The translations under genes were made by a program, and so were the position numbers. This document shows positions 16,254-53,435 of a DNA stretch of 64,000 bases, one piece after another. Numbering within the stretch: position 1 is the first letter of the stretch; each line of letters opens with the position of its first letter. The stretch comes from an uncultured virus (IMG/VR IMGVR_UViG_3300010153_000001) (Duplodnaviria > Heunggongvirae > Uroviricota > Caudoviricetes), in the IMG/VR virus record IMGVR_UViG_3300010153_000001; one strand, 5' to 3'. The notes under the pieces are model-generated. The model had not been told where the DNA came from. It worked only from the letters and a program-made list of their open reading frames with translations, and did not search any database.

Positions 16254-16602
16254 TTACACATCTTTTTAAAGATTTTAACTCTCTACTTAAATGATCAGCT
16301 GTACCATATGCATGTGTAAGTAACTGTAGTAACTGTTGTTTATTACATTTCAATATATCTAAAGGAAATGGCATATATGTACTAGCATCACTACAATATG
16401 GTGCCCACTCTCTCATTTCTCCTATCTCTTTACCAACTTTATCTATAACTTCCATAGATTCTTTAAATCTCTTGGTATTTTCTATAGCTCTAGCTTCTTC
16501 TACTTCAGCAGCTACTTTCTTAGACTCTTCTACAGATTGTAACTTAAGTTTATTCAATATTTTTTTAGGTATATATATCATAATTCTTTTATTATTTGCC
16601 AA
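16246..16602 (-). CDS. Hypothetical protein
   Basis: 118-aa ORF in an overlapping chain. Confidence 0.7.
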   Translation of the reverse strand: MANNKRIMIYIPKKILNKLKLQSVEESKKVAAEVEEARAIENTKRFKESMEVIDKVGKEIGEMREWAPYCSDASTYMPFPLDILKCNKQQLLQLLTHAYGTADHLSRELKSLKRCVNE

Positions 16603-19209: not shown

Positions 19210-19770
19210 CTAGAACGGTAACTCTGGTCTTCCCTCTTTGATTGCTTCATATACTTTTTTTATTTGATCACGCATTACTGTCTCTGAACTTACAATATCT
19301 AAATCTTCCCATTTAACATCTTTCTTTATTAAGATTAGATTTCCTTTGTCATCATTAGTAATAACTGATACATTAAATTTATAACACCAAGGATTAAAGT
19401 CATCTCTATAAGATGAGTCACCAGTTATAATTGCATAAAATAATTTCTTACCATGAATATCATTGTCACAGTATACATTATGATCTTTCAATACATCTTT
19501 ATCATAATCAATTGTCTCATATCTATCAGATATATAACGAATAACATCTCCTATTTTAGGTAATTGAGGTTTATCCTCATCTGTCATTATCTGTAAGAAA
19601 GTAGCAATAGCATGTTCATCTAATGATTTAAATAATAAATCAATTATATATTTTCTATTAGGTGTGTCCTTTTTTAATGCACTTAACATTATGTGTGCAC
19701 CTACGTCCTCTGGTATATTAATAGTTTTACTCATTTTTTGATATTTTTTAATGTTTCTTTTGTAATCCAT
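19210..19770 (-). CDS. Hypothetical protein ending in ELPF
   Basis: 186-aa ORF; alternative start at 19734. Confidence 0.75.
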   Translation of the reverse strand: MDYKRNIKKYQKMSKTINIPEDVGAHIMLSALKKDTPNRKYIIDLLFKSLDEHAIATFLQIMTDEDKPQLPKIGDVIRYISDRYETIDYDKDVLKDHNVYCDNDIHGKKLFYAIITGDSSYRDDFNPWCYKFNVSVITNDDKGNLILIKKDVKWEDLDIVSSETVMRDQIKKVYEAIKEGRPELPF

Positions 19771-19896
19771 ATTGTTGGTTTTGGATATACTTTTATTCTC
19801 CAGTCAGATTTAGCTTTCCCTACTGTCTCTAACTTCTTTTCTTTATACTTGTCTTTTAAGTTCTGCATGTCGTAATACTTGTTTTAGTTTAGAAGT

Positions 19897-23348: not shown

Positions 23349-24008
23349 ATGGCAAATAAAGAAAAGACTCCTCCCAAAGGAGCAATAAGATTCTCTTTGA
23401 GCTTATCTGAGGAACAGAAGAAAGCTAAGACAGAGATTTTAAAACATCCCTTTAACTTTCTAGTGGGTAAGGCGGGATCAGGTAAGACGTTATTAGCTGT
23501 ACAGATAGCGTTAGATCAATTTTTTAAACGTCAATTCAATAAGATAATAATTACAAGACCTACTATATCAACAGAAGATAATGGGTTCTTACCAGGATCT
23601 GAGCGTGAGAAAATGGAACCGTGGCTTGTTCCTATCCGTTCTAATATGCGTAAGATCTATAATAAACCATCTATACTAGAAAAGATGGAGAAGGATGAGA
23701 AGATAGAATTAGTATCCTTAGCACACTTTAGAGGACGTACGTTTGATAATGCAGTAGTCATTGTAGATGAGTTCCAGAATCTTAGTAGATCACAACTAGC
23801 AATGTGTATTGGTAGATTAGGTAAAGATTCAAAGATGATATTCTGTGGAGACTCATATCAAATAGATCTAAAAGATAAGAACTGGTCAGCATACCATGAT
23901 ATGGCTAAACTAACTAATTCAAAGTTTGTATATAAAACAGTATTAGAAGATTCACATAGACATGATGCTATAGATAATCTTCTAGAATTACTAAATGGGT
24001 ATCACTAA
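23349..24008 (+). CDS. phoH: PhoH-like ATPase
   Basis: GKAGSGKT, ITRP, GFLPG, FRGRTF, VDEFQN, GRLG, GDSYQID. Confidence 0.95.
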   Translation: MANKEKTPPKGAIRFSLSLSEEQKKAKTEILKHPFNFLVGKAGSGKTLLAVQIALDQFFKRQFNKIIITRPTISTEDNGFLPGSEREKMEPWLVPIRSNMRKIYNKPSILEKMEKDEKIELVSLAHFRGRTFDNAVVIVDEFQNLSRSQLAMCIGRLGKDSKMIFCGDSYQIDLKDKNWSAYHDMAKLTNSKFVYKTVLEDSHRHDAIDNLLELLNGYH

Positions 24009-24018
24009 AACAAAACCA

Positions 24019-24231
24019 ATGGCAAAATATGAATGTAAAAAATGTAATGAATCATTAGAAATCTATAAGAGAAGTCTAGTAATTAAAGATGGTAAGTTAG
24101 TATGTAAGGAAGCAAAATGTAAATGCGGTACTTATATGGACCAGGTAATTACTGAAGAGTATGAAGGGTTGCCTGATATACAAAGAAATGAAGGAGGAGA
24201 CTCTGCATTTAAATCAAATCTATCTAATTAA
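24019..24231 (+). CDS. Small zinc-ribbon protein
   Basis: YECKKC...CKCG; start likely 24019. Confidence 0.6.
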   Translation: MAKYECKKCNESLEIYKRSLVIKDGKLVCKEAKCKCGTYMDQVITEEYEGLPDIQRNEGGDSAFKSNLSN

Positions 24232-24311: not shown

Positions 24312-24350
24312 TCATATAAATCAATTTAATAATCATTTAAAACCAAAATT

Positions 24351-24704
24351 ATGGCAAATGAAAATGTTAATCCTACAGAGAATTTTTCTGATGAGGATGT
24401 TCAACTATCAAAAGAAGAGTTGAAAAAAAGAAGAGCTGAAGTAACAGCTTATTACAAAGATCATATTAAAGATCTTAAAGTTCAAAAGGAATATGAAGAA
24501 CTTTTAAGAGACATTGAGAAAACACGTGCTGAAAGAGTTCAAGCACAGATGTTTCTTGCCCAAGCAATGGCTGGACCTCAAGAAGGTACACCAGATGAGA
24601 TCAATCAAGAAAGAGCAGCAGCAGTTCAACAAGCAGCAGCAGATTGGAATGCAGATCAGAATGGTGCTCCCCCAAAGAGAACTTTAAAACGTACGGAATC
24701 ATGA
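24351..24704 (+). CDS. Hypothetical coiled-coil protein
   Basis: 117-aa ORF. Confidence 0.8.
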   Translation: MANENVNPTENFSDEDVQLSKEELKKRRAEVTAYYKDHIKDLKVQKEYEELLRDIEKTRAERVQAQMFLAQAMAGPQEGTPDEINQERAAAVQQAAADWNADQNGAPPKRTLKRTES

Positions 24705-25327: not shown

Positions 25328-25686
25328 TGAAAGTTAAAAAAGTAGAAAAAAAAGTAAAGACAAGTAAGGATGAGGTTATCAAATACCAAATCCTTACTTA
25401 TTGCTTTCTTAATGAGATACAAATAAGTCTATCAGATCTATTATGTTTAACTGAATTAGCTAAATTAGAAGTATCTGAACTTACAAAGTTTTGTTCTTTC
25501 ATATCAGATAAAGGAATATTTAAGAGTCCTCAATCTTGTAGGAATGCAATAACAAAAGCAAGTAAGAAAGATCTAATTGTTAAGACAGGTGTAAATAAGA
25601 AAAGTATTCAACTTAATCCTAATATAGAAATACAAACAGAAGGTACTATACTATTAGATTATAAATTACTAGGAGTTGAATCCTAA
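25318..25686 (+). CDS. Hypothetical protein (possible winged helix)
   Basis: 122-aa ORF. Confidence 0.7.
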   Translation: MDLMKVKKVEKKVKTSKDEVIKYQILTYCFLNEIQISLSDLLCLTELAKLEVSELTKFCSFISDKGIFKSPQSCRNAITKASKKDLIVKTGVNKKSIQLNPNIEIQTEGTILLDYKLLGVES

Positions 25687-26035
25687 AAATTATAAAGATT
25701 TTTATCCTGAGATTGCAGAGGAATGCAATGCTCATGTAGATTTAGTTGGAGATTTGGTATCCTTTTATTATGGTAGAGTTAGAAAAGCTTTATCTGATTT
25801 AGAAGGAAGTAAAGTGTACTTACCAAACTTAGGAACTTTCTCATTAAGGAGAAGAAGACTTGAAAAGAGTATTAAGAGAAATAAGGATATTCTTGGAAAT
25901 ATTCAAAAGAATACTTATAAAGGTTATGGTAAATATATACCCATAAAAGAAAAAATAGACATATTAGAAAATGCGCTATCTGTAATGAAAAAAGAACAAG
26001 AAACCAAAAAAAAGTTTAAAGATGAAAATAGTTAA
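25676..26035 (+). CDS. HU/IHF-like DNA-binding protein
   Basis: Helical N-terminus then KVYLPNLGTFSLR. Confidence 0.55.
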   Translation: MNPKNYKDFYPEIAEECNAHVDLVGDLVSFYYGRVRKALSDLEGSKVYLPNLGTFSLRRRRLEKSIKRNKDILGNIQKNTYKGYGKYIPIKEKIDILENALSVMKKEQETKKKFKDENS

Positions 26036-26342
26036 GTTATTGAAAGCTATTAAAAATGTTGACCAAATATTAGAAGGTGTTAAAAATAAGATATTTAAGT
26101 CTGATGATGTTGAAGCTGTTGCTGATGAAAGATGGTTACACTGTAAAGAATGTGAAGTATTAGATATGAGTGGTTTAAATTGTGCAGCACCTGGGACACA
26201 ACCTTGTTGTGCAGATTGTGGATGCTCATTAGGTATTAAACTTAGAGCACTATCAGCATCTTGCCCTAAAGGTAAATGGGATGCTGTACTATCTGGTGAA
26301 CTTGAACAAAAATTTAAGAATGAAACAGGATATAAAGAATAA
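26022..26342 (+). CDS. Cys-rich hypothetical protein
   Basis: CKEC...CCADCGC...CPKGKW. Confidence 0.75.
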   Translation: MKIVKLLKAIKNVDQILEGVKNKIFKSDDVEAVADERWLHCKECEVLDMSGLNCAAPGTQPCCADCGCSLGIKLRALSASCPKGKWDAVLSGELEQKFKNETGYKE

Positions 26343-27691: not shown

Positions 27692-27777
27692 TGTTATTAA
27701 ATTATATAGTATGTATATTACTTATAGGAACGCTTATATGGGCAGTTCTTACTGATCATACAGATAATTATTATTAA
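27691..27777 (+). CDS. Small membrane peptide, 28 aa (not in ORF track)
   Basis: MLLNYIVCILLIGTLIWAVLTDHTDNYY; TAATG coupling. Confidence 0.45.
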   Translation: MLLNYIVCILLIGTLIWAVLTDHTDNYY

Positions 27778-27794
27778 TTTTTAAAACCAACAAA

Positions 27795-28070
27795 ATGAAG
27801 AAAGTAATTCCAATGGGTAATAGAGTTTTAATTAAACAGGACCCAAAAATTGAAACAGTACAAAATGGTTTAATCTATTTACCAGAAACAGAACAACATC
27901 AACCACCTTTAGGTATTGTAATTTCTGCAGGACCTAAATGTGAACAAGTAAAAGAAGGTGATTATGTACAATGGCCAATGGAGGTTAATGCTACTGCTTT
28001 TATGCATGATGATGAAGAGCATATAGTACTAGCTGAAGGTGCTATTATTGCAATACTAGTAGATGTATAA
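27795..28070 (+). CDS. groES: Co-chaperonin GroES
   Basis: PMGNRVLIK, GLIYLP, GIVISAGP, VKEGDYV, IIAIL. Confidence 0.9.
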   Translation: MKKVIPMGNRVLIKQDPKIETVQNGLIYLPETEQHQPPLGIVISAGPKCEQVKEGDYVQWPMEVNATAFMHDDEEHIVLAEGAIIAILVDV

Positions 28071-30252
28071 AAAAATTCCAAAATATCAAGATGGTGAATG
28101 GGGATATAAAGAGTTTGAAACAAAAGAAGATTTTAATACTTATCTTTTAAATATCTTTAAAGAACCTGGTCAATATAATTTTGATGAGACTGCTCTATTA
28201 TTTAATGAACAAGCAGTCTTATTTAATTCACAAGGATTTTATTGTGATAAACCATTTAGATCTAAAGATTATATTAAATACTGGAATGATGAAAAGGAAA
28301 AATGTAGAGAAGGAGTTCTATTTATAGGAAAGAAAAACACATGGTATCTCACAAGAGATTATTATATGTGGTTAAACTTTCTTCCTATTTTTGATAAAGA
28401 AGAAAAGAAGTATGGTTTTGCTAAAGTCAGAGATGCTCAATATCATATGGCACTTTATGAAATATTAGCAGAACTACAACATAAACATGCAGCTATATTA
28501 AAGAAAAGACAAATTGCTTCTTCTTACTTTCATATGGGTAAGATTATAAATCAATTTTGGTTTGAAGAAGGATCAATATGTAAAATAGGTGCATCACTTA
28601 AAGATTATATTAATGATAAAGGATCCTGGAAGTTCCTAGATGAATATAAGACGTTTCTCAATGAGCATACTGCATGGTATAGACCTTGTACTCCAGAGAA
28701 AGTTTTATTATGGGAACAAAAGATTGAAGTTAGAATAAATAATAGAAAAACTAATAAAGGTCTTATGTCAAAAATACAGGGTGCATCATTTGAGAAAAAT
28801 GCAACAACAGGTGTTGGTGGACCATGTACTTATTTCTTTCATGAGGAGGCTGGTATTGCTCCAAAGATGGATCAGACATATGAATATATTAGACCTGCAA
28901 TGACATCAGGTATGATGACTACAGGTATGTTTATTGCAGCAGGATCTGTGGGTGATCTTGCCCAATGTAACCCATTAAAAGAATTTATACTTAACCCACA
29001 AGCAAATGATATATATGCTATAGAAACAGATCTAATGGATGATAAGGGTAAGATTGGTGTTGCTGGTTTATTTATACCAGAGCAATGGTCAATGCCTCCA
29101 TTCATTGATAAATATGGAAATTCACAAATTAAAGAAGCATTGAAAGCTGTATATGAAGAAAGAGCACAATGGCAGAAAGATCTAGCACCTGAACAATATC
29201 AATTACGTATATCTCAGAAACCTGTTAATATTGCAGAAGCATTTGCGTATAGACAAGCTGCAATATTTCCACAAGGAGTAATATCTAAACAATTAAAAAG
29301 GATTGATGATAAAGAATATGGTTATGAGCATATAGAATTAGAAAGAACAGAAGAAGGTATAGAAGCTAAAAGAAGTAGGAAATTACCTATAATGGAATTT
29401 CCAGTAAAGAAAAAGCAGGAAGATAAAACAGGAGTATTAGTTGTATGGGAAAGACCTATAGATGATCCTACATTTGGAACATATTATGCATCTATTGACC
29501 CTGTTTCAGAAGGAAAGACAACTACATCAGATTCATTGTGTAGTATTTTTGTATATAAAAATGCATGTGAAGTTACAAGAACAAATGAGAAAGGTGAGAC
29601 AGAAACATTTATTGAAAGAGAAAAAGTTGTTGCATCATGGTGTGGAAGATATGATGATATAAATAAAACACATGAACAATTAGAATTAATTATAGAATGG
29701 TATAAAGCATGGACATTGGTTGAAAATAATATATCATTATTTATACAACATATGATTGCTAAACGTAAGCAGAAATATTTAGTTCCAAAACAACAGATTT
29801 TATTTCTTAAAGATTTAGGTTCTAACAATAATGTATTTCAAGAATATGGATGGAAGAATACTGGAACGCTATTTAAAAGTCATTTAATTTCTTATGCTAT
29901 TGAATACATTAGAGAAGCAATAGATGAAGAGTTAGATGATAACGGAGAAGTAATATCACAAACATTTGGAGTACAAAGAATACCAGATAAAATGTTACTA
30001 ACAGAGATGATGCAATATTATCCTGGATTAAACGTGGATAGATTAGTTGCATTTTCAGCTTTAGTTGCTTTTGTTAGAATTCAACAATCAAACAGAGGAT
30101 ATACTAAAAGAAGAGAGAATCAAGACTCAAATAACTTGGATAAGTCACAAAATTTGTATAAATTAAATATGAGACCTTTTAGAAACATAGGAGGTAAAAG
30201 ATCAACAAAAGGAAGTAGAATAAAGAAATCACCATATAAAAACTTTAAATAA
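28063..30252 (+). CDS. terL: Terminase large subunit
   Basis: LKKRQIASSY Walker A-like, FFHEEAG Walker B, ASIDP nuclease motif, LVENN, NVDR; directly upstream of portal. Confidence 0.9.
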   Translation: MYKKIPKYQDGEWGYKEFETKEDFNTYLLNIFKEPGQYNFDETALLFNEQAVLFNSQGFYCDKPFRSKDYIKYWNDEKEKCREGVLFIGKKNTWYLTRDYYMWLNFLPIFDKEEKKYGFAKVRDAQYHMALYEILAELQHKHAAILKKRQIASSYFHMGKIINQFWFEEGSICKIGASLKDYINDKGSWKFLDEYKTFLNEHTAWYRPCTPEKVLLWEQKIEVRINNRKTNKGLMSKIQGASFEKNATTGVGGPCTYFFHEEAGIAPKMDQTYEYIRPAMTSGMMTTGMFIAAGSVGDLAQCNPLKEFILNPQANDIYAIETDLMDDKGKIGVAGLFIPEQWSMPPFIDKYGNSQIKEALKAVYEERAQWQKDLAPEQYQLRISQKPVNIAEAFAYRQAAIFPQGVISKQLKRIDDKEYGYEHIELERTEEGIEAKRSRKLPIMEFPVKKKQEDKTGVLVVWERPIDDPTFGTYYASIDPVSEGKTTTSDSLCSIFVYKNACEVTRTNEKGETETFIEREKVVASWCGRYDDINKTHEQLELIIEWYKAWTLVENNISLFIQHMIAKRKQKYLVPKQQILFLKDLGSNNNVFQEYGWKNTGTLFKSHLISYAIEYIREAIDEELDDNGEVISQTFGVQRIPDKMLLTEMMQYYPGLNVDRLVAFSALVAFVRIQQSNRGYTKRRENQDSNNLDKSQNLYKLNMRPFRNIGGKRSTKGSRIKKSPYKNFK

Positions 30253-30352: not shown

Positions 30353-33133
30353 ATGCAATTATATAATGCTCTTCAGTTAAAAAACGGTGCCAAGGTTAAA
30401 GGTGAAGGTTTAACCAATAGTAGTCTTACTCAACCTCTTCAATTTATCAAAGCTAAAGATAAAGATGAAGAATGGGCAGCATGGAATTTAGATTGGATAG
30501 AAATGAGAGGTATGGAATACCTAAGAAAAAATGCAAGGAAATTATTAAAAAATTATAAACTTGCTAAAGGTATTATTGATAAGAAAGATTACATTGTTGA
30601 AGAAGACAATGAGTATAAAGAAATAATGGATGTTTTAACTGAAGAAGATAATTCTGCATTAGAACTTAAATTCTATCCTATAATCCCAAATGTTATAAAT
30701 GTATTAACTGGAGAATTCACAAAGAGATTTCATAAAGTACAATTTAGGGCAGTAGATGATCTATCCTATAATGAAATGCTTGAAGCAAAAAGATTACAAA
30801 TAGAAGAAAATCTATTAGCTGATGCTGAGTCTAAAATTTTAATGAAGATGTTAGATGCTGGTTTAGATCCTAACTCAGAAGAAGCACAAGAAAAACTTTC
30901 ACCAGAAAATTTAAAATCATTACCTGAAATAGAAGATTTCTTTTCCAAAGATTATAGAAGTCTAGTTGAAGAATGGGCAACACACCAATTGGCTGTTGAT
31001 GAAGAAAGATTTAAAATGAATGAACTAGAAGAAAGAGGATTTAGAGATATGCTTATTTCAGATAGAGAATTCTGGCACTTTAAAATGAATGAGGATGATT
31101 ATGATGTTGAACTCTGGAATCCTGTATTAACATTCTACCATAAATCTCCTGACTCAAGATACATATCTGATTCTAATTTTGTAGGTAAATCTGATATGAT
31201 GTCACCAGCAGATGTTATTGATAAGTATGGTTATTTAATGACAGATGAACAATTATTATCTTTACAAAATATTTATCCTGCTATTTCTGCAAGATATATG
31301 CAAACTGGAGTACAGAATGATGGATCTTATTATGATGCTAGTAAATCACATAAATGGAATGTAGGAGCCCCTTCATTACAATATAGACAATATATGAGCC
31401 ATTGGGATTCTGATCCATCAACAGGAGGTGATATTGTTAATTGGATACTTAGAGAAGGTGATGATATATATAATTGGGGTGATGGGGATATGATGAGGGT
31501 TACTACAACATATTGGAAAACTCAAAGGAAAGTAGGACATCTCACAAGACTTACAGAAGAAGGTGATGTAATGCAAGATATAATTGATGAAACATATAAA
31601 GTTACTGAAAAACCTATTTACAATACAAATTTATTTAGAGAAAAAACAAAAGATAATCTAGTACAAGGAGAACATATAGATTGGATATGGATTAATGAAG
31701 TTTGGGGTGGTATTAAGATTGGTCCAAATTTACCTAGTTATTGGAAGCAAAATAATGATGGAGGTTTTAATCCTATTTATTTAGGTATTAATAGAAGTAA
31801 GCCAGGAAGAATACCTTTCCAGTTTAAAGGAGATACTAGTTTATATGGATGTAAACTTCCTGTTGAGGGAAGAGTATTTTCTGATAGAAATACAAGATCA
31901 ACTTCATTAGTTGATTTAATGAAACCTTATCAAGTAGGATATAATATGGTTAATAATCAAATAGCAGATATACTAGTAGATGAACTAGGTACTGTTATTA
32001 TGTTTGATCAAAATGCTTTACCACGTCATTCAATGGGTGAAGATTGGGGTAAGAATAATCTTGCTAAAGCATATGTAGCAATGAAGGATTTTGGTATGAT
32101 GCCTTTAGATACATCTATTACTAATACAGAAAATGCTACAAACTTTAATCATTATCAGACACTAAATCTTGAACAATCAGGAAGACTAATGTCTAGAATT
32201 CAATTAGCTAATCATTTTAAACAACAAGCTTTTGATGCTATTGGTGTAAATCCACAGAGATTAGGAAGTCCAATTGGACAAGAAACAGCAACAGGAGTGA
32301 TTAATGCAATGAACCAGTCATATGCACAAACTGAGATTTATTTTGTAAATCATTCAGATCAACTTATGCCACGTGTTCATCAAATGAGAACAGATCTTGC
32401 ACAATACTATAATAGTACAAACCCAAGTGTAAGGCTTACATATATTAATTCTGAAGCAGAAAAAGTTAACTTTGTTATTAATGGAACTGAATTATTAATG
32501 AGAGACTTTAATATTTTCTGTACAACTAAAACAAATCATAGAGCTACTCTTGATCAATTAAAACAATTAGCTCTTCAAAATAATACTTCAGGAGCATCTA
32601 TATATGATCTTGGAAGTATTGTTAAAGCAGATTCAATTGCTGAAGTTACAGATATTCTTAAAGATGCTGAGACTAAACAAGAACAAATGCAAATGCAACA
32701 ACAACAATCTCAACAGCAAATGCAAGAACAACAACTTCAAGCTGCAGCTGCAGAAAAACAAGCTGAACGTGATTTCAAAGTGCAAGAGGGTGAAGCTGAA
32801 AGAAGAAAAGATCTTATGGTTGCTGAAATTAGAGCTGCTGGTTATGGTGCACAAACTGATATTGATCAAAATCAGGTAAGTGATTTTCGTGATGCAATGA
32901 ATGATATGCAGAAGAGAGATCAATATAGAGAGCAAATGGATTTCAAAAGAGAAGAGTCTATAAATAAAAATGCACAGAACCGTGATAAGTTAGCAGTAGA
33001 AAGAGAAAAAATAGCTGCAACACGTGATGTAGCTAATACAAATCTTGAAATTGCACGTGAAAATAAGAATCAATATGATGTAAAATCAGTTGATAAAGAA
33101 AAGAAAAAGAATAAGAAGAGTAAAGAAAAATAA
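30353..33133 (+). CDS. Portal protein (crAss-like)
   Basis: 926 aa after terL; FYPIIPNVINVLTGE, SLVDLMKPYQ, IGVNPQRLG, Gln-rich coiled-coil C-terminus. Confidence 0.85.
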   Translation: MQLYNALQLKNGAKVKGEGLTNSSLTQPLQFIKAKDKDEEWAAWNLDWIEMRGMEYLRKNARKLLKNYKLAKGIIDKKDYIVEEDNEYKEIMDVLTEEDNSALELKFYPIIPNVINVLTGEFTKRFHKVQFRAVDDLSYNEMLEAKRLQIEENLLADAESKILMKMLDAGLDPNSEEAQEKLSPENLKSLPEIEDFFSKDYRSLVEEWATHQLAVDEERFKMNELEERGFRDMLISDREFWHFKMNEDDYDVELWNPVLTFYHKSPDSRYISDSNFVGKSDMMSPADVIDKYGYLMTDEQLLSLQNIYPAISARYMQTGVQNDGSYYDASKSHKWNVGAPSLQYRQYMSHWDSDPSTGGDIVNWILREGDDIYNWGDGDMMRVTTTYWKTQRKVGHLTRLTEEGDVMQDIIDETYKVTEKPIYNTNLFREKTKDNLVQGEHIDWIWINEVWGGIKIGPNLPSYWKQNNDGGFNPIYLGINRSKPGRIPFQFKGDTSLYGCKLPVEGRVFSDRNTRSTSLVDLMKPYQVGYNMVNNQIADILVDELGTVIMFDQNALPRHSMGEDWGKNNLAKAYVAMKDFGMMPLDTSITNTENATNFNHYQTLNLEQSGRLMSRIQLANHFKQQAFDAIGVNPQRLGSPIGQETATGVINAMNQSYAQTEIYFVNHSDQLMPRVHQMRTDLAQYYNSTNPSVRLTYINSEAEKVNFVINGTELLMRDFNIFCTTKTNHRATLDQLKQLALQNNTSGASIYDLGSIVKADSIAEVTDILKDAETKQEQMQMQQQQSQQQMQEQQLQAAAAEKQAERDFKVQEGEAERRKDLMVAEIRAAGYGAQTDIDQNQVSDFRDAMNDMQKRDQYREQMDFKREESINKNAQNRDKLAVEREKIAATRDVANTNLEIARENKNQYDVKSVDKEKKKNKKSKEK

Positions 33134-33137
33134 GACT

Positions 33138-33216
33138 TAGCTATATACTCCTGAAAAAAATATTTTTATACAAAATGTTTAAGGTTTATACTTTAAAATG
33201 TTGTATATTATTAGTG
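33138..33216 (+). promoter_or_regulatory. Capsid operon promoter with shared operator-like motif
   Basis: TAGCTATATACTCCTGAAAA at 33138-33157 and TTGTATATTATTAGTG at 33201-33216. Confidence 0.65.
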
Positions 33217-33245
33217 TAATAATTAAAAACCAACAATTAGAAATT

Positions 33246-35276: not shown

Positions 35277-35335
35277 AAATATAAAACAAAAAAACAACAA
35301 CAACAATAATTATTAATTAAAAAAAGAGTGAAATT

Positions 35336-36976
35336 ATGGCAACTCCAGTATTAAACAACGGCTTGTTCTTAAGAGATACAAGCTACAAAGCGAGTTCACA
35401 CATAGATTCATATCACTTAGCAAGTATGCTTGGTAATGCAGAACCAATGGACATGGGTCCAGTTGATCTGTGGGCAATGACGCAAAAGGTAGAAATGCCT
35501 TTATACCAAATGGCATCTTTCGGTGGTAAGAATACTATCATGGTGGACAATGCAAGAGGTGAATACAAATGGCAAACACCTATTGCAATTGACCTTCCTT
35601 TCATTACAGATGACATTACGGCATCTGATACTGTAGGAAAAGATGGTCAAAAGTTTAGAATTAAACTTTCTAAACGTACATTTGGGCACGGGGACATTAT
35701 TACTTATGATAAGTATAATGGACTTGAGCTTTACATTACAGCTGATGATATTCTACCAGCAGGTAATGGATTTATCTATACTTGTCAACTTGTAAACAAT
35801 GCAAGTAATACAGGTTTAGATACAACTAAATATCTTGTAGCAGGAACTAAATTCTTTAGAAAAGGTTCTGCAAGAGGTGAGTATGGAGAAAGATTCTCTG
35901 ATATTGAAACAAGTGCAGGTTTCCGTGAATTCTACAACTTTGTAGGAGGAGCAGAAGCACACGTACATTATTCAATTTCTTCTAGAGCAGATTTAATGAT
36001 GAAGGGAGGAATGAATGCTGACGGTACTGTACCTGTAACTGAGATATGGAGAAACTTTGATAAAAACATTGATCCATCTATTTCTACATTAGAAGGTATG
36101 GTTACAGCAATGGGTAAAGATTATATTAAGAGAGCGTTTGATAATGGATCTCTTTCTAGAACATTCTTAACTTCTATGGAAGCTGCACACCTTACTAAAG
36201 TAGCAAATGACATTGAGACTTACTTAATGTGGGGTCATGGTGGTAGAGTTAGACAAGACGGTCCAGATGATATTAGATTATCAGTTGGTCTTTGGAAGCA
36301 GTTAGACAACTCATTCAAAAGAGTATATAACAAAGCTTCATTTGATCTTGACATGTTCAAGAATGAACTTTACAACTTCTACCAAGGAAAAGTTGAATTA
36401 GAAGGACCAGATCCAGGACGTACTTTAGTAGTACAAACAGGAATTGGTGGTATGAAACTTATCAATGAAGCTATTAGAGCTGAAGCAGCTGGTTTAACTG
36501 GTGGTGGTGCTCTAGGTACTGGTGCAGTTATAAATGCTGATAACTTAGGAATTGTTAAAGGTAATCCAATGGACTTAGGTTTTGGATATGCATTTACTTC
36601 TTATGTGATTCCGTTCTTAGCTAATGTACAGTTTGTATTAAACCCAGCGTTTGACAACTTACATACTAATGACATTGAGAATCCATTAGTAGATGGAAGA
36701 CCTTTATCTTCTTACAGCTTTATCATCTTTGATGTAACTGATAATGTTCAAGATAATATCTTCTTATTGAAATTATCTTGGGATAATCAATTGAAATGGT
36801 TCTACCAAAATGGTACTATGGACTATATGGGACGTAGTCAAGGATTTGCTTCATCAGGTAACTTTAATGGATACCGTGTAATGATGACACAGACCATGCC
36901 AGCTATTTGGGTAAAAGATCCAACTAAAGTTCTTAAGATTGTTATGAAGAATCCTGTAACAGGAGGCTCATTCTAG
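35336..36976 (+). CDS. Major capsid protein (crAss-like HK97 fold)
   Basis: 546 aa; position, strong codon bias, downstream terminator; YLMWG, GLWKQL, QTGIGG, WVKDPTK. Confidence 0.85.
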   Translation: MATPVLNNGLFLRDTSYKASSHIDSYHLASMLGNAEPMDMGPVDLWAMTQKVEMPLYQMASFGGKNTIMVDNARGEYKWQTPIAIDLPFITDDITASDTVGKDGQKFRIKLSKRTFGHGDIITYDKYNGLELYITADDILPAGNGFIYTCQLVNNASNTGLDTTKYLVAGTKFFRKGSARGEYGERFSDIETSAGFREFYNFVGGAEAHVHYSISSRADLMMKGGMNADGTVPVTEIWRNFDKNIDPSISTLEGMVTAMGKDYIKRAFDNGSLSRTFLTSMEAAHLTKVANDIETYLMWGHGGRVRQDGPDDIRLSVGLWKQLDNSFKRVYNKASFDLDMFKNELYNFYQGKVELEGPDPGRTLVVQTGIGGMKLINEAIRAEAAGLTGGGALGTGAVINADNLGIVKGNPMDLGFGYAFTSYVIPFLANVQFVLNPAFDNLHTNDIENPLVDGRPLSSYSFIIFDVTDNVQDNIFLLKLSWDNQLKWFYQNGTMDYMGRSQGFASSGNFNGYRVMMTQTMPAIWVKDPTKVLKIVMKNPVTGGSF

Positions 36977-37027: not shown

Positions 37028-37065
37028 CTAAACCAATAATTATTAATAAACCAAAAAAATTAGTT

Positions 37066-41011: not shown

Positions 41012-41029
41012 ATATAAAACCAAGAGAAT

Positions 41030-41215
41030 ATGAAATGCACACATTGTGATAAAACAATAGGATGTGGATGTAACAAAGCAGTTGCTGGTGATGGATCTAC
41101 AGTATGTAAAGGATGTTTAAATGTATATAATCAGACATTAACTTCAACTACTACTACTACTACCACACCATTTAATCCAGGAGTAGTTGTTATTCCTCCT
41201 ACAACAGCAAGATAA
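41030..41215 (+). CDS. Small Cys-rich protein
   Basis: CTHC...GCGC...CKGC. Confidence 0.65.
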   Translation: MKCTHCDKTIGCGCNKAVAGDGSTVCKGCLNVYNQTLTSTTTTTTTPFNPGVVVIPPTTAR

Positions 41216-49400: not shown

Positions 49401-49955
49401 ATGGGATGTAATTGTAACTCTAGTAATTGTAAATCAACACCTTGTGCATGTAAAGACACAGGATTAACAACACCTTGTGCATATTCAGAATGTACAGGAG
49501 TTAATGTTGAGGTATGTGCAGAATGTTTATGCATGGAATGTATAACTTGGTGTCAAGATACAATTGAAGCAAAAGACTCTTCTAATAATATATTTACTAT
49601 TGCAAAAGGAGAAAGACTATCAGCAATAATGCAAAGAGTAGCATTATTCCTAAAAGATCCAAATACTGCAACTAAATCAGTACAGTATTTATATATAATT
49701 AATAAAACATCAACAACAGTAACATTAGGATGGGCAGGTGTACCTACATCAGCAGCATCATTAAATGTAAAATATAAAGTATCAACAGCGGGTGCTTATT
49801 CTGCAGCACCAAGTGGAACAGGAGTTGCAACATCAGCAGCATCATTTACTGTAACAGGATTATCTCCTAATACAGTATATAAATTCCAAGTTGATGCAGT
49901 TGTAGGTGGAACGCCATATGGTTCTGTAGAAACATATTGCACAACAACAATATAG
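49401..49955 (+). CDS. Cys-rich FN3-domain protein
   Basis: TVTLGW...VKYK...VTGLSPNTVYKFQV. Confidence 0.8.
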   Translation: MGCNCNSSNCKSTPCACKDTGLTTPCAYSECTGVNVEVCAECLCMECITWCQDTIEAKDSSNNIFTIAKGERLSAIMQRVALFLKDPNTATKSVQYLYIINKTSTTVTLGWAGVPTSAASLNVKYKVSTAGAYSAAPSGTGVATSAASFTVTGLSPNTVYKFQVDAVVGGTPYGSVETYCTTTI

Positions 49956-50028
49956 CAAGAGAGTAGTGTTTTGTTGGTTTTCATTGCTTGTTTGCAGAGA
50001 AGGTCCTATGAAAGTAGGGCCTTTTCTC
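49955..50028 (+). ncRNA. Candidate 3'UTR small RNA (seed-loop hairpin plus terminator)
   Basis: 13 of 14 stem positions pair (4 G-U) around loop TTTTGTTGGTTTT, followed by a GAAA-capped terminator. Confidence 0.55.
49997..50028 (+). terminator. Intrinsic terminator
   Basis: AGGTCCTAT-GAAA-GTAGGGCCT-TTTCTC. Confidence 0.8.
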
Positions 50029-50047
50029 GTATTATCAAACTTTTTTA

Positions 50048-50055
50048 TATCTTTG
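50048..50055 (+). promoter_or_regulatory. Bacteroidota -7 promoter element
   Basis: TATCTTTG about 28 nt upstream of ATG 50084. Confidence 0.7.
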
Positions 50056-50083
50056 TAGCATATTAACTTAAAAAAAATTATAA

Positions 50084-51265
50084 ATGGATTCATTATTTGA
50101 AAAAATTAAAGCATCATTTAAATGGAAAAAAACATCTGATTATTGTGCAGAAAAACTAGATATGACAGTAGAGGATTATGACAAACTAAAAGACTATGTT
50201 AAGTCACAAGAATTGTTAGAAAACTCTGCAACATCATATGAATACAATTTAGAGAAAGGTGAAGCAAAAATGGAAACAATAAGTTCTTCTGAACCAAAAT
50301 CTCCTGAAGAAATAATTGATGTATTAAACATTGACACTACACAATGGAAACTGTCAAGCTATTGGAATAAACAAATGGGTGATCATTGGAGAGTATCTGC
50401 AATGGTTACAAGACTAAAAGATAATGAAGTAGATAATGTTGCTGAATTATTAAAAGGATTCAAACCAAAAAAACATAAATTAGTTAAAAGGATTAAAACT
50501 CCAGGTAAAATAAAAACGGCTGGAGTTTTATCATTACAGGATATACATTTTGGAAAAGAAGGTAATGAAACTATAGATAAAGATTTTGAAGAAACAATTA
50601 TAGATCTTGCTGATAGAGCAACTAGTTCACATCATCTTGAAAAATTATACTATGTAGTAGGGGGTGATTTAATTAACATGGATACATGGAATGGATCTAC
50701 AACTAGTGGTACTCCATTAGATAATTGTTCTACTGCTACAGAAGCTTATATGCAAGCATTTGATGCATTACAATGGAGTATAAATTATCTTAAACAATTT
50801 TGTGATGAATTACAAATAGTTTATATACCAGGTAATCATGATAGATTATCATCATTTCATTTAGCACATGCTCTCTCAAAATGTTTTAATGATTCTAATA
50901 TAATATGGGATGTAGTTTATCTTGAGAGAAAAGTATTCACATATGGAGATAATTTCTTTGCTTTTGAACATGGTGATGTTAATACTAAGAATTCATTATT
51001 AGTATACTCTATGGAATATCCAAGAGAATGGGGTAAGACATTGTATAGAACATTATATACAGGACATTATCATCATAAGAAAAAAATAGAATACATAACT
51101 GAACATGAAAAGACTGGTTTCATGTTAAAGATTTTACCAAGTTTATCACGTACAGATTATTACCATTATCATAATAAATTCATAGGATCAAGAAGATCTG
51201 GTGTGTTATCTTTACATACACCTAATAAAGGAGAAATATGTGAATTAACTTATTCTCCAGAATAA
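50084..51265 (+). CDS. Calcineurin-like metallophosphoesterase
   Basis: DIHFG, GGD..N.D, PGNHD, EHGD, GHYHH motifs. Confidence 0.85.
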   Translation: MDSLFEKIKASFKWKKTSDYCAEKLDMTVEDYDKLKDYVKSQELLENSATSYEYNLEKGEAKMETISSSEPKSPEEIIDVLNIDTTQWKLSSYWNKQMGDHWRVSAMVTRLKDNEVDNVAELLKGFKPKKHKLVKRIKTPGKIKTAGVLSLQDIHFGKEGNETIDKDFEETIIDLADRATSSHHLEKLYYVVGGDLINMDTWNGSTTSGTPLDNCSTATEAYMQAFDALQWSINYLKQFCDELQIVYIPGNHDRLSSFHLAHALSKCFNDSNIIWDVVYLERKVFTYGDNFFAFEHGDVNTKNSLLVYSMEYPREWGKTLYRTLYTGHYHHKKKIEYITEHEKTGFMLKILPSLSRTDYYHYHNKFIGSRRSGVLSLHTPNKGEICELTYSPE

Positions 51266-51843: not shown

Positions 51844-52518
51844 ATGACAACTATAGGAGAAATTATATCAAGAGTAAGGAATCAAATAAAAGGAGAAATT
51901 CAGGATGCTTTTTTAACTGACAGATTTCTCTACAGTATGATAATAAAGTTTGCGCAAACATTAATGAGAAGACAAGACCACGTCAATAAACTCATGAAAT
52001 TTAATAGTGTTTGGCAAACTTTACCTTTTTTAGAATTAATAGATGTAGATAAAGTTGAAGCAGATTGTTGTGGTGTAGTAAGTGGAGTGACTATTAAAAG
52101 AACTAAAGATAAACTTCCAACATTCTTTGAAGGATATTGGGGACCTTTAATTAGAACAATATCATCTATAGATGGATCAATAGAATGTCAACCAACACAA
52201 CCTGGTACATTTACATCTATGAGTAAGACAACTTCTTTTAGATATAATAAATCAAAGTATTTCTGGTTTCTAAATGATTATATATACTTACCAAATGTTG
52301 ATTGGGATGCAATAAAATTAGAAGGTGTATTTGAAAAAGACATATCAAGTATAACATGTGATGGAGCTGATGATTGTATTCCAAGATATAAACAACAAAT
52401 TAACATTCCTGAATTTCTTTATTCTGAAATAGAAGCTCAAATAATACAGACATTAGCTACTAGAATGCAAATACCTCAAGAAGATGCAAGTAATAATAAA
52501 AATGTAAATAGATATTAA
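51844..52518 (+). CDS. Putative ring/tail adaptor protein
   Basis: MTTIGEIISRVR..., KYFWFLNDYIYLPN; position. Confidence 0.55.
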   Translation: MTTIGEIISRVRNQIKGEIQDAFLTDRFLYSMIIKFAQTLMRRQDHVNKLMKFNSVWQTLPFLELIDVDKVEADCCGVVSGVTIKRTKDKLPTFFEGYWGPLIRTISSIDGSIECQPTQPGTFTSMSKTTSFRYNKSKYFWFLNDYIYLPNVDWDAIKLEGVFEKDISSITCDGADDCIPRYKQQINIPEFLYSEIEAQIIQTLATRMQIPQEDASNNKNVNRY

Positions 52519-52520
52519 AA

Positions 52521-53435
52521 ATGGGTTTATCACATAAATATAGAACGTTTGATCAATTACTAGAAGATGTAAAAGTAGATTTCTCTACATATGATCTAGA
52601 AGGTATGATTGAACCTCAACAATTAATTAAAGTTGCTACTAAAGTAAATTATGATCTAGGTTTAAGAATTCATCAGAGTAAAGAATCTATTATTGATGTT
52701 GAACATAATAAAGCTCAACTCCCTTCAGACTTTAAAACACTTAATTATGCTTTTGTATGTAGTAATTATCAAGTAGTAAATACAGCTCCATCAGGTACAC
52801 ATACAGATACTACACAACCAAAGTGGACACCAGATCCAAGTCAACCACATGTGTGTACAACGCCTGAAGATTGTGAAAATGTATGTGTTGTTAAAACATG
52901 CCCAACAGATATAGGTAAAGGTGTTACTACATATAGTGGAGAATATATTGTAATACAAAGAATGAATGCATCAACATATAGAGAATATACAAGTTTCTTT
53001 CCTTTACGTATAACAAATACAGCTCATGTTAGTTGTGAATGTCCAAATTTAAATACACAGTCTCATAATCTTGCTGAAATACAAGATGATTATTTACTCA
53101 CAACATTTACTACAGGTAAAGTATATTTAAGTTATCAAGGTATATTAGAAAATAATGATGGAGAATTATTAGTTCTTGATCATCCCTATTGTAATGAGTA
53201 TTATGAGTATGCCCTTAAAGAAAGAATCTTAGAAAATATGATATTTGGTGGAGAACAAGTAGCACAACAATTAGGTTTAATTCAAGCTAAGTTAAGAGCT
53301 GCAAGAAATAACGCACTTAGTTTTGTTAACACTCCTGATTTTGAAGAAATGAGAAAGCTATGGGAAGTTAATAGAAGAGCTCAATATCATAATTATTATG
53401 ATATGTTTAGAAGTGAAGCTCCTAATAGGAGATAA
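52521..53435 (+). CDS. Putative tail tubular/ring protein
   Basis: AQLPSDF, GKVYLSYQG...DGELLV.D; directly upstream of the muzzle gene. Confidence 0.6.
   Translation: MGLSHKYRTFDQLLEDVKVDFSTYDLEGMIEPQQLIKVATKVNYDLGLRIHQSKESIIDVEHNKAQLPSDFKTLNYAFVCSNYQVVNTAPSGTHTDTTQPKWTPDPSQPHVCTTPEDCENVCVVKTCPTDIGKGVTTYSGEYIVIQRMNASTYREYTSFFPLRITNTAHVSCECPNLNTQSHNLAEIQDDYLLTTFTTGKVYLSYQGILENNDGELLVLDHPYCNEYYEYALKERILENMIFGGEQVAQQLGLIQAKLRAARNNALSFVNTPDFEEMRKLWEVNRRAQYHNYYDMFRSEAPNRR

What the first reader, a model, noticed from the sequence alone, without database searches (positions are those of the whole stretch)
49955..50028. Candidate phage sRNA whose loop is antisense to the start regions of many phage genes
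Seen: directly after the last fibre gene, 49955-49968 pairs with 49982-49995 at 13 of 14 positions including four G-U pairs (so it folds on the plus-strand RNA), exposing exactly UUUUGUUGGUUUU as the loop; a terminator follows. The loop is the perfect 13-nt reverse complement of AAAACCAACAAAA(TG) at the groES start (27783-27795), matches 11 nt at the scaffold leader (33226-33236) and the minus-strand 19770 leader, and 7-8 nt at 24012, 24339, 37030/37048 and 41016. Inference: a trans-acting RNA regulon in which late tail transcription feeds back on translation of packaging, head and other genes, by repression or by guiding initiation in a host that lacks SD pairing. I know of no description of this, but could not search.
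Basis: partly seen in the sequence, partly recalled or inferred. Interest (0 to 1): 0.9.

Follow-up and report, generated by a model that had tools for sequence, protein, structure and literature searches.

The report
Conserved phage anti-leader RNA hairpin
An uncultured crAss-like phage and its many relatives keep one small RNA hairpin next to a terminator whose unchanging loop is the mirror image of a short signal that sits just before the start of some phage genes, so it is a strong but untested candidate for an RNA that controls how those genes are translated.

Summary
The hairpin 49955-49995 has a 13-nt loop, UUUUGUUGGUUUU. A strong terminator hairpin follows at 49996-50027. The exact 13-nt complement lies at the Cpn10/GroES start (27783-27795).

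The element is real. 79 of 80 related viral contigs carry it at the same place. TTGGTTT is invariant, the stems covary, and there are many G-U pairs that fit only the plus strand. It occurs once per genome. Rfam has no match.

The complement AAACCAA is a genuine leader motif specific to the sense strand. It occurs in 50 of 965 leaders in nine genomes, where 5.4 are expected, and in 89 of 777 leaders around the terminase gene. It usually sits 11-13 nt before ATG. It is kept in 40 of 43 orthologous leaders of the gene after the portal gene.

The perfect GroES site itself is not conserved. Only the 7-8 nt core is universal. Loop/target co-variation is suggestive, not proven. No RNA data exist and the host is inferred.

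Best reading (about 0.55): an RNA embedded in or derived from a 3' UTR pairs through UUGGUUUU with A-rich, ribosome-binding-position leader elements. It most likely masks them and lowers translation. This is a new RNA family of a known kind, and it needs experiments.

The parts
49955..49995 (+). Two-tier RNA hairpin. The outer stem is 49955-49959/49991-49995 and the inner stem is 49961-49968/49982-49989.
   Evidence: Sequence. MFE fold. CM R1 gives its single significant hit in the window here (24.0 bits). Covariation is seen in relatives.
49969..49981 (+). 13-nt loop UUUUGUUGGUUUU. The invariant core UUGGUUU (49974-49980) is the proposed seed.
   Evidence: TT..TTGGTTT are the only invariant columns in 63 distinct sequences. 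The core is unpaired in the MFE of 60 of 63.
49996..50032 (+). Intrinsic-terminator-like 14-bp GC-rich hairpin (49996-50027) with a U-rich tail.
   Evidence: Fold. By a rough criterion of my own, 59 of 63 distinct relatives have a GC hairpin plus a U run at this place. The simple scan did not list it.
27783..27795 (+). Perfect 13-nt complement of the loop, abutting the ATG of the Cpn10/GroES-like gene 27795-28070.
   Evidence: Duplex energy is -13.9 kcal/mol, the best of 66 TIRs. The site is not conserved beyond the nearest relative.
33226..33236 (+). 11-nt complement in the leader of the 439-aa gene after the portal gene (likely start 33246).
   Evidence: Orthologous upstream regions keep AAACCAA in 40 of 43 distinct cases.
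19772..19782 (-). 11-nt complement in the leader of the minus-strand gene 19210-19770.
   Evidence: Duplex energy is -12.4 kcal/mol.
24013..24019 (+). AAACCAA core overlapping an in-frame ATG at 24019 of ORF 23995-24231.
24339..24346 (+). AAAACCAA core 11 nt before the ATG of gene 24351-24704.
26001..26007 (+). AAACCAA core 21 nt before the ATG of gene 26022-26342. It lies within the coding end of ORF 25676-26035.
37030..37054 (+). Two AAACCAA cores (37030, 37048) before the ATG at 37066 of the 340-aa gene after the major head protein gene.
   Evidence: Orthologues carry one or two copies.
41016..41023 (+). AAAACCAA core 13 nt before the ATG of the 61-aa gene 41030-41215.
   Evidence: Duplex energy is -10.4 kcal/mol.

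Best explanation
The hairpin plus terminator forms the 3' end of the late structural transcript(s) that end after the Fn3-domain gene 49401-49955. It works as RNA, either still attached to the mRNA or cut out as a species of about 75-80 nt.

Its exposed, invariant loop core UUGGUUU(U), with clade-specific extensions of 3-5 nt, base-pairs in trans with (A)AAACCAA elements. These elements lie about 14 to 7 nt before the start codon of some 5-10% of the phage's genes. They include the 439-aa gene after the portal gene, the 340-aa gene after the major head protein gene, the GroES-like gene and several small genes.

The target elements are open and A-rich, and they sit where Bacteroidota ribosomes use upstream adenines. 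Pairing therefore most likely masks the ribosome-binding region and lowers or times translation, as an 'anti-enhancer'.

Shown: the structure, its conservation, the strand, the single copy, and the enrichment and placement of the complement.
Inferred: that the two pair in vivo, that the effect is repression, that the RNA accumulates late, and that the host is a Bacteroidota.
For: **The RNA is real and conserved.**
- 79 of 80 loci have TTGGTTT within 260 nt upstream of the exonuclease gene. The one exception holds only 63 nt of upstream sequence.
- It is also present in a relative binned in a Lake Mendota MAG, apparently freshwater (25.3 bits), and in a MAG-binned relative (27.2 bits).
- The invariant columns are TT..TTGGTTT.
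- The inner helix is 98.6% paired, with double-sided changes in 5 of 7 pairs, across 21 sequences.
- In 42 distinct sequences it is 94.6% paired, with double-sided changes in 6 of 6 pairs. 0 of 500 shuffles reach the observed covariation, and the slid controls pair at 31-48%.
- The plus strand folds more stably than its reverse complement in 56 of 63 cases, and G-U pairs are frequent.
- There is one copy per genome.

**The complement is a real leader motif.**
- AAACCAA occurs in 89 of 777 distinct leaders around the terminase gene. It ranks 11th of all 7-mers and first among all A5C2 permutations.
- In nine genomes it occurs in 50 of 965 leaders against 5.4 expected, while TTGGTTT occurs in 1 of 965.
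- 51 of 89 sites lie 11-13 nt before ATG.
- 40 of 43 distinct upstream regions of the post-portal gene carry it.
- It is not enriched in a 3.7-Mb Bacteroidota MAG (13 matches against 8 for the reversed control).

**Own loops match own leaders beyond the core.**
- Class F: UUUGUUGGUUUU with AAAACCAACAAA, 10-12 nt.
- Class C: UUUUAUAUUGGUUUU with AAAACCAAUAUAA, 13 nt in G014.
- Mean own-loop match is 7.81 against 7.07 for other-class loops. Random dealing of loops reaches this in 122 of 5000 trials.

**Targets are open.** TIRs bearing the motif have a mean MFE of -3.0 against -4.4 kcal/mol (p = 0.002), and the motif is unpaired with probability 0.83.

**Context from the literature.** Adenines at -14 to -11 promote initiation in Flavobacterium johnsoniae and may bind bS1 (PMC6847099, passages read).
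Against: - No RNA evidence of any kind is available.
- The 13-nt GroES site is not conserved. Relatives at 87-89% terminase identity have AAAACTAAACTAAAATG or AAAATTAATAAAAATG there.
- The universal complementarity is only 7-8 nt of A/C-poor sequence.
- Enrichment against shuffled loops, genome by genome, is modest. At -10 kcal/mol the window gives 3 against 0.65, reached by 3 of 100 shuffles. G004 is reached by 4 of 100, G008 by 2, G011 by 5, G009 by 9 and G002 by 18. G005 shows none.
- G005 has 0 of 91 leaders with the exact core within 30 nt of ATG.
- The generic co-variation test failed. The base after AACCAA in A-loop against G-loop genomes gives Fisher p = 0.22, and the commonest base there is A, which pairs with neither loop type.
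- The own-against-other test ignores relatedness. Four class-C genomes lack a contiguous match because of a 1-nt deletion.
- Repressing abundant head genes at the time they are needed is not an obvious benefit.
- No conserved promoter for a separate small transcript is visible.
Confidence: 0.55

Rival explanations
1. The hairpin is a cis-acting 3'-end element whose conserved loop is a protein-binding site. The protein could be a phage or host RNA-binding protein that sets termination efficiency, read-through into the exonuclease/ring/cargo genes, 3'-end processing or mRNA stability. On this view the complementarity to the leaders is secondary or coincidental.
For: The hairpin always abuts a terminator at the border between two gene modules, and it starts on the stop codon of the upstream ORF. 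Loop sequence is conserved while the stem covaries, which is also the signature of protein-recognised hairpins. Per-genome target enrichment is weak in some genomes and absent in G005.
Against: It leaves unexplained why the loop is the exact complement of the most enriched non-trivial leader word of the same phages, on the sense strand only, at a fixed distance from ATG. It also leaves the clade-specific extended matches unexplained. No RNA-binding domain was recognised in the window's proteins, though most of them have no family at all.
Confidence: 0.2
2. The loop acts in trans mainly on host RNAs (host mRNA leaders or another host RNA), for example for host shut-off. The phage's own AAACCAA leaders are then bystanders, or are tuned to escape or share that control.
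For: The seed is short and invariant over deep divergence (terminase about 62% identical), as expected if it is anchored by a conserved host sequence. Phage sRNAs that act on host targets are known (recalled; see also the listing of PMC13502914).
Against: The host is unknown, so this is untested. In the one Bacteroidota MAG at hand the leader pattern is not enriched (13 against 8). The 16S rRNA of the other MAG holds no TTGGTT. That test bears on the rRNA-mimic idea and not on the loop's complement, and its bin is doubtful. The phage's own leaders show strong, position-specific enrichment.
Confidence: 0.12
3. The element works as DNA: a single-strand hairpin or a double-strand protein site for replication, packaging or a transcription factor that also binds near the gene starts.
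For: The same 7-13 bp word occurs in both orientations in the genome. In double-stranded DNA that would be the same site.
Against: G-U pairs make the stem strand-specific, and the minus strand folds poorly. Leader sites are orientation-specific (50 against 1). They are fixed relative to ATG, not to the promoter-like boxes, with spacings of 4 to 28 nt. Divergent transcription places a likelier origin near 22.5 kb.
Confidence: 0.04
4. The loop/leader match is chance in an A/T-rich genome, and the hairpin is just an extra terminator-proximal stem.
For: The genome has 31% G+C and its leaders are A-rich, so any U-rich loop finds partners. Shuffled loops give 3.7 TIR hits at -8 kcal/mol against 4 observed in the window.
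Against: The loop is invariant across 63 distinct sequences with covarying stems. AAACCAA is first of 21 equal-composition words in leaders. It is kept in 40 of 43 orthologous leaders.
Confidence: 0.03

Closest known systems
GcvB sRNA of enterobacteria (recalled, not read here)
   Same: A G/U-rich single-stranded seed pairs with C/A-rich, translation-enhancing elements just upstream of many start codons and represses them. It has a multi-target regulon and ends in an intrinsic terminator.
   Different: GcvB is a chromosomal gene with its own promoter. It depends on Hfq and its seed is a linear region, not a hairpin loop. There is no sequence or Rfam relationship here. This element is phage-borne, lies at an mRNA 3' end, and is in a lineage whose likely hosts lack Hfq (recalled).
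c4 antisense RNA of phages P1/P7 and CI RNA of P4 (recalled)
   Same: These are phage-encoded small RNAs whose exposed loops pair with short complementary words repeated in the phage's own transcripts, blocking a ribosome-binding site or causing termination.
   Different: They are immunity devices of temperate elements. They are processed from the 5' part of the very operon they control and have two or three targets. Here there is a lytic-type crAss-like genome, a 3'-terminal position, and some 5-10 dispersed targets. Rfam gives no match.
3'-UTR-borne regulators: the icaR 3'UTR/5'UTR pairing in Staphylococcus aureus, and the 3'UTR-derived sRNAs CpxQ, SroC and DapZ (recalled)
   Same: The regulator sits between a stop codon and the mRNA's own terminator and carries an anti-RBS word.
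   Different: icaR acts on its own mRNA. Here the adjacent genes lack the target word. Processing is not shown here.
Bacteroides thetaiotaomicron sRNAs such as GibS and MasB (PMC7366714 and PMC10994844; search listing and abstracts only)
   Same: These are base-pairing sRNAs in a phylum without Hfq or ProQ, with intrinsic terminators. Seeds lying in loops that target start regions is recalled, not read.
   Different: They are host-encoded and of unrelated sequence, and they were not compared in detail here.
SviR of the PLE satellite of vibriophage ICP1 (Dunham et al. 2023; seen only in the reference list of PMC10884466)
   Same: A small RNA of a mobile viral element that regulates viral genes by pairing.
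   Different: It comes from a different host phylum and is satellite-encoded. Its details were not read.

Membership tests
Trans-acting base-pairing sRNA (3'-UTR type) | Stable structure ending in an intrinsic terminator on the transcribed strand | tested here: met
   Plus-strand MFE is -32.6 kcal/mol (z = -6.55), with a 14-bp GC hairpin and a U-rich tail. The minus strand gives -13.8. By a rough criterion of my own, 59 of 63 relatives have a terminator hairpin plus a U run.
Trans-acting base-pairing sRNA (3'-UTR type) | Conserved, single-stranded seed | tested here: met
   TTGGTTT is invariant in 63 distinct sequences. It is unpaired in 60 of 63 MFE folds. The flanking helix covaries.
Trans-acting base-pairing sRNA (3'-UTR type) | Complementary sites at the translation-initiation regions of several mRNAs, more than chance | tested here: met
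   50 of 965 leaders against 5.4 expected, with the opposite orientation in 1. 51 of 89 sites are 11-13 nt before ATG. Per-genome tests against shuffled loops are only modest.
Trans-acting base-pairing sRNA (3'-UTR type) | Co-variation of seed and target | tested here: inconclusive
   Clade-specific extended matches occur, up to 13 nt in G014. The own-against-other test is reached in 122 of 5000 trials, without phylogenetic correction. The generic test gives p = 0.22.
Trans-acting base-pairing sRNA (3'-UTR type) | A discrete transcript, and a regulatory effect abolished and restored by compensatory mutations | not testable with these tools
   No RNA run was listed. No cultured close relative exists: the best portal identity is 33%.
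Any curated RNA family (Rfam 15, including GcvB and C4) | Score at or above the family's gathering threshold | tested here: not met
   There were 0 matches at gathering thresholds in the whole window. The best permissive hit on the region is SraG at 17.8 bits against a threshold of 50, E = 1.5.
Lambda-type nut/boxB antitermination hairpin | Short hairpin downstream of a promoter, with a boxA-like partner and an N-like protein | tested here: not met
   It lies at the 3' end of a long operon, directly before its terminator, and the promoter-like box comes after it. The loop is 12-19 nt. No N-like protein was sought specifically.
crAss-like phages (context of the element) | Hallmark structural genes | tested here: met
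   Pfam CrAss_Ring_2 and CrAss_Ring_1 match at 51844-53435. The terminase, portal and major head protein PHROGs are those of crAss-like phages, and the giant 2516-aa virion protein also matches virion-protein PHROGs. Terminase and portal are only 21-33% identical to cultured or named phages.

The most novel reading that the evidence does not exclude
The hairpin and the AAAACCAA leaders form a private, phage-specified substitute for Shine-Dalgarno pairing in a host whose ribosomes ignore SD sequences. The phage RNA would not simply block its targets. It would act as a trans 'anti-leader' adaptor that marks or delivers a chosen set of phage mRNAs to the ribosome. It could do so alone or with a phage or ribosomal protein, or by protecting their 5' ends. 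That would give the phage its own translational address code that switches on with late transcription.
Probability: 0.07. Interest if true: 0.95.

Novelty: new variant of a known kind. Interest (0 to 1): 0.78.

Why it matters
Regulatory RNAs of lytic phages are barely known. I found none described for crAss-like phages or for phages of marine Bacteroidota: nothing in Rfam and nothing in four full-text searches.

Here a whole uncultured clade keeps both partners of a putative RNA-RNA circuit. At least 237 viral contigs encode the neighbouring gene. 79 of the 80 examined hold the hairpin, and a relative binned in a lake MAG does as well.

The target word sits exactly where Bacteroidota mRNAs use upstream adenines instead of a Shine-Dalgarno sequence. 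The circuit therefore offers a direct, mutable handle on two open questions: how translation start sites are chosen and regulated in SD-blind bacteria, and how crAss-like phages time gene expression after transcription.

The test is simple. It needs two short RNAs, compensatory point mutations and a Flavobacterium reporter.

Tried and rejected
- **Rfam.** No family matched.
- **Nucleotide search of the phage collection with 48-52 kb.** No match.
- **RNAalifold on the plain MAFFT alignment.** It found only the terminator, because the stems were misaligned. I replaced it with a covariance-model alignment.
- **Public RNA runs.** No RNA holder was listed.
- **The 1466-aa protein as an anchor to get loop and leaders in one locus.** Only 2 loci came back.
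- **GroES leader conservation.** The perfect site is lost in near relatives. I dropped it as the flagship target.
- **Generic loop/target co-variation.** Not significant.
- **A minus-strand ORF or leader reading of the loop.** The ATG at 49984 is not conserved in relatives, by inspection and my own reading.
- **rRNA-mimic idea.** The only 16S rRNA I could fetch (G013) has no TTGGTT. No 16S was found in G012, and the control genomes give no loci. The idea stays essentially untested.
- **Host assignment.** Relatives are binned once with a 'Rickettsiales' MAG and once with a Chitinophagaceae MAG, which is contradictory and weak. TAnnTTTG is not enriched upstream of starts by raw count (0.95 against 0.82 per kb).
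- **Exonuclease gene in the Lake Mendota relative.** Not found with this query, although the hairpin is there.
- **Leptolyngbya phage Lbo-JY46 as a cultured model.** It has a TTTGTTGGTTG word before a terminator in the matching intergenic region. However, the MFE does not form the hairpin, R1 gives no hit at E of 1 or below, and 1 of 142 leaders carries the motif.
- **My first own-against-other script.** It used wrong leader windows. Its numbers are discarded and one search replaces it.
- **The strict stacked-pair count (36 of 63).** It was an artefact of cutting into the terminator arm and of demanding 5 uninterrupted pairs. One search replaces it.
Full report
**What is in the window.** The window has 30.9% G+C.

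- Genes 1-22.4 kb run on the minus strand and encode replication functions: primase-like, DnaB-like helicase, nucleases.
- From 22.6 kb the genes run on the plus strand. They include PhoH, a lysin-like protein, a Cpn10/GroES-like protein (27795-28070), large terminase (28063-30252), portal (30353-33133) and major head protein (35336-36976).
- Two giant proteins of 1466 and 1232 aa follow, then a 184-aa Fn3-domain protein (49401-49955).
- Next come an Mre11/SbcD-like exonuclease (50084-51265), crAss tail ring proteins 2 and 1 (51844-53435) and a 2516-aa virion protein.
- Terminase and portal are only 21-33% identical to named phages. The best portal match is Leptolyngbya phage Lbo-JY46 at 33%. 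crAss-like phages of Bacteroides and phages of Cellulophaga are nearer 21-25%.

This is a deep, uncultured crAss-like lineage.

- 49955-49968 pairs with 49982-49995 at 13 of 14 positions, four of them G-U. The loop 49969-49981 is TTTTGTTGGTTTT, and the stem starts on the G of the stop codon TAG.
- As plus-strand RNA, 49950-50032 folds at -32.6 kcal/mol (z = -6.55). The fold gives this hairpin and a 14-bp GC-rich hairpin at 49996-50027 with a U-rich tail. The minus strand reaches -13.8 kcal/mol.
- The simple terminator scan did not list the second hairpin. I call it a terminator from the fold and from the relatives, whose T runs are longer.
- The exact 13-nt complement lies at 27783-27795, on the ATG of the Cpn10 gene.
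- 11-nt matches lie at 33226-33236 and at 19772-19782 on the minus strand.
- AAACCAA cores lie at 24013, 24340, 26001, 37030, 37048 and 41017, each within 21 nt of a start codon.

**Is the hairpin a real element?** Yes.

- The exonuclease gene found 237 related stretches in viral contigs, and the best 80 were kept.
- 79 of those 80 have TTGGTTT within 260 nt upstream of the gene. The one exception holds only 63 nt of upstream sequence.
- The 63 distinct sequences, window included, share only TT..TTGGTTT as invariant columns.
- In 60 of 63, the MFE of hairpin plus terminator leaves UUGGU unpaired inside a hairpin of at least 7 pairs.
- The stems differ between clades (GUGAUGG/CUAUCAC, GCAAUAA/UUAUUGC, GUGGAG/CUCUGC, GUUACGG/CUGUAAC and others) but stay paired.
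- In 21 sequences the inner helix is 98.6% paired, with double-sided changes in 5 of 7 pairs.
- In a covariance-model alignment of 42 distinct sequences it is 94.6% paired, with double-sided changes in 6 of 6 pairs. 0 of 500 shuffles reach the observed covariation, and slid controls pair at 31-48%. That alignment is fitted to the model, so it leans towards the structure.
- The outer helix scores only 57-62%, because its position shifts between clades and the alignment does not follow it.
- G-U pairs are frequent, and the plus strand folds better than its reverse complement in 56 of 63 cases. The element is therefore an RNA of the plus strand.
- It is single-copy. There is one significant hit in the window (24.0 bits, the next 17.3). 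There is one hit per locus in 55 of 81 sources at E of 0.1 or below; the model was built from one clade and is weaker on the others. The complete genomes G008 and G011 have one hit each. G009 has one strong hit and one weak hit that lies antisense to a leader.
- A relative binned in a Lake Mendota MAG, apparently freshwater, with a terminase only 62% identical, also has it. Its stem differs again and its loop is UUUGUUGGUUU.
- Rfam has nothing.

**Is the complement a real feature of leaders?** Yes, and this is what lifts the finding above a coincidence.

- In 80 loci around the terminase gene, AAACCAA occurs in 89 of 777 distinct 30-nt leaders. It ranks 11th of all 7-mers and is far ahead of every other word of the same composition.
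- It occurs in 6 of 65 leaders in the window, but in only 2 of 374 leaders in the tail/exonuclease loci.
- In nine genomes (the window plus eight complete relatives) it occurs in 50 of 965 leaders against 5.4 expected. The loop-sense word TTGGTTT occurs in 1. The motif therefore belongs to the mRNA strand and is not a duplex DNA site.
- 51 of 89 sites start 11-13 nt before ATG.
- The distance to promoter-like boxes varies from 4 to 28 nt.
No family was found for it, and its start in the window is probably 33246. It keeps AAACCAA in 40 of 43 distinct upstream regions. The other 3 read AAAACCAUAUAAUU.
- The rows of alignment A4 were chosen for having the motif, so its conservation there is by construction.
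- TIRs bearing the motif are less structured than the others (-3.0 against -4.4 kcal/mol, p = 0.002), and the motif is unpaired with probability 0.83.
- In a 3.7-Mb Chitinophagaceae MAG the pattern AAAACCAAC-N2-6-ATG occurs 13 times, against 8 for the reversed control. The motif therefore looks phage-specific. That is one genome, of uncertain relevance.

- The perfect GroES site is kept only in the identical contig. A 12 of 13 version survives in the next relative. At 87-89% terminase identity the leader reads AAAACTAAACTAAAATG or AAAATTAATAAAAATG.
- Only the 7-8 nt core is universal. The commonest base after AACCAA is A, which pairs with neither loop type.
- Energy tests against 100 shuffled loops are modest. 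The window has 3 TIRs at -10 kcal/mol or below against 0.65 expected, a count reached by 3 of 100 shuffles. G004 is reached by 4 of 100, G008 by 2, G011 by 5, G009 by 9 and G002 by 18. G005 shows none.
- G005 has 0 of 91 leaders with the exact core.

**Do loop and target change together?** The evidence is suggestive only. Loops fall into clade-specific classes, and the post-portal leader follows them.

- UUUGUUGGUUUU goes with AAAACCAACAAA, matching over 10-12 nt in G007-G011.
- The window's loop matches its leader over 11 nt.
- UUUAUUGGUUUU goes with AAACCAAUA or AACCAAUAA, matching over 9 nt.
- UUUUAUAUUGGUUUU goes with AAAACCAAUAUAA, a perfect 13 nt in G014.

Relative to the first class, the last one changes C:G to U:A and A:U to U:A. 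However, four other genomes of that class have a 1-nt deletion that breaks the run. Dealing loops at random to 21 genomes reaches the observed mean match in 122 of 5000 trials. That test ignores relatedness, and UAUA is a common pre-ATG context. The generic test is not significant (p = 0.22).

**How it most likely works.** The RNA has no conserved promoter of its own. It begins on the stop codon of an upstream ORF, and in the upstream sequences only the C-terminal residues of that ORF look alike between clades (my reading by eye, not aligned). It is therefore the 3' UTR of the late structural transcript(s), possibly processed.

Its loop can pair with an open word at about -14 to -7. In Flavobacterium johnsoniae, adenines at -14 to -11 and at -12/-13 promote initiation and may be read by bS1 (PMC6847099, passages). 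Pairing there should hide the ribosome-binding region. I therefore favour repression or dosing of a small set of phage genes as late transcripts accumulate, much as GcvB silences C/A-rich enhancers (recalled).

This step is inference. So are the timing, and a Bacteroidota host that does not use SD pairing. The host inference rests on SD-like cores in only 5 of 66 leaders, on TAnnTTTG-type boxes before some genes and on crAss-like gene content. Binning of relatives with a 'Rickettsiales' MAG and a Chitinophagaceae MAG is contradictory.

**Rivals.**

- A protein-binding or termination-control hairpin explains the position and the conserved loop, but not the complementarity.
- A host-directed seed cannot be tested without a host.
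- A DNA site is contradicted by the strand specificity on both sides.
- Chance is contradicted by conservation.

**Known or new.** I found no description. Rfam gave nothing. Four full-text searches gave nothing: phage S21 and late genes, the motif word, crAss-like with small RNA, and phage-encoded sRNA with seed. The S21 paper holds no motif statement (passages). Subscription-only literature and supplements were not searched.

It is an AI note and not independent evidence, and I re-derived its main claims here.

The kind of thing (a base-pairing regulatory RNA, phage-encoded, at a 3' UTR) is known. The family, the phage lineage and a regulon defined by a phage-specific word at the ribosome-binding position are new.

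Noticed in passing
window 27765-27782, 33214-33225, 35303-35316, 37037-37047: A word like (A)TAATTATTAAT recurs just upstream of several late-gene leaders, next to or between AAACCAA cores. It could be part of a late promoter or another shared leader element.
   Followed up: no
window 33198/33246 and 23995/24019: Likely mis-set starts if the first ATG is taken. The post-portal gene probably starts at 33246 (MAE..., as in relatives). ORF 23995-24231 may start at the in-frame ATG at 24019, which is directly preceded by AAAACCA.
   Followed up: partly
L249 (PP438436.1, Leptolyngbya phage Lbo-JY46), locus about 16290-16330, minus strand: This is the nearest named phage (portal 33% identical). It has TTTGTTGGTTG flanked by an A/U-only inverted repeat directly before a terminator, in the intergenic region after its tail genes. 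The fold does not favour a hairpin and its leaders lack the motif. Its genes are preceded by TAnnTTTG-like boxes, which is unexpected for a phage reported on a cyanobacterium.
   Followed up: partly
L216 (G013:C2) and L218 (G012:C153): Complete-length relatives (120 and 118 kb) are deposited inside MAGs labelled Rickettsiales and Chitinophagaceae. They are probably phage contigs binned by composition or coverage, so they should not be read as host evidence without more support.
   Followed up: partly
G009 and G011 (loci L204-L215), several minus-strand genes: In these relatives the motif often abuts the start codon directly (AAAACCAATG). This is a second preferred register besides the 11-13 nt spacing.
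   Followed up: no
L030 and L039 (same contig, 245,646 bp): One viral contig of twice the usual length holds two copies of the exonuclease locus, with different hairpin stems and different upstream genes. It may be a chimeric assembly or a co-assembly of two relatives.
   Followed up: no
window 50040-50083 and homologous places in L001-L080: After the terminator, a T-rich run and a TATCTTTG/TATATTTG/TATCTTGC box precede the exonuclease gene in nearly all relatives. This suggests a separate transcription unit for the exonuclease, ring and cargo genes.
   Followed up: no
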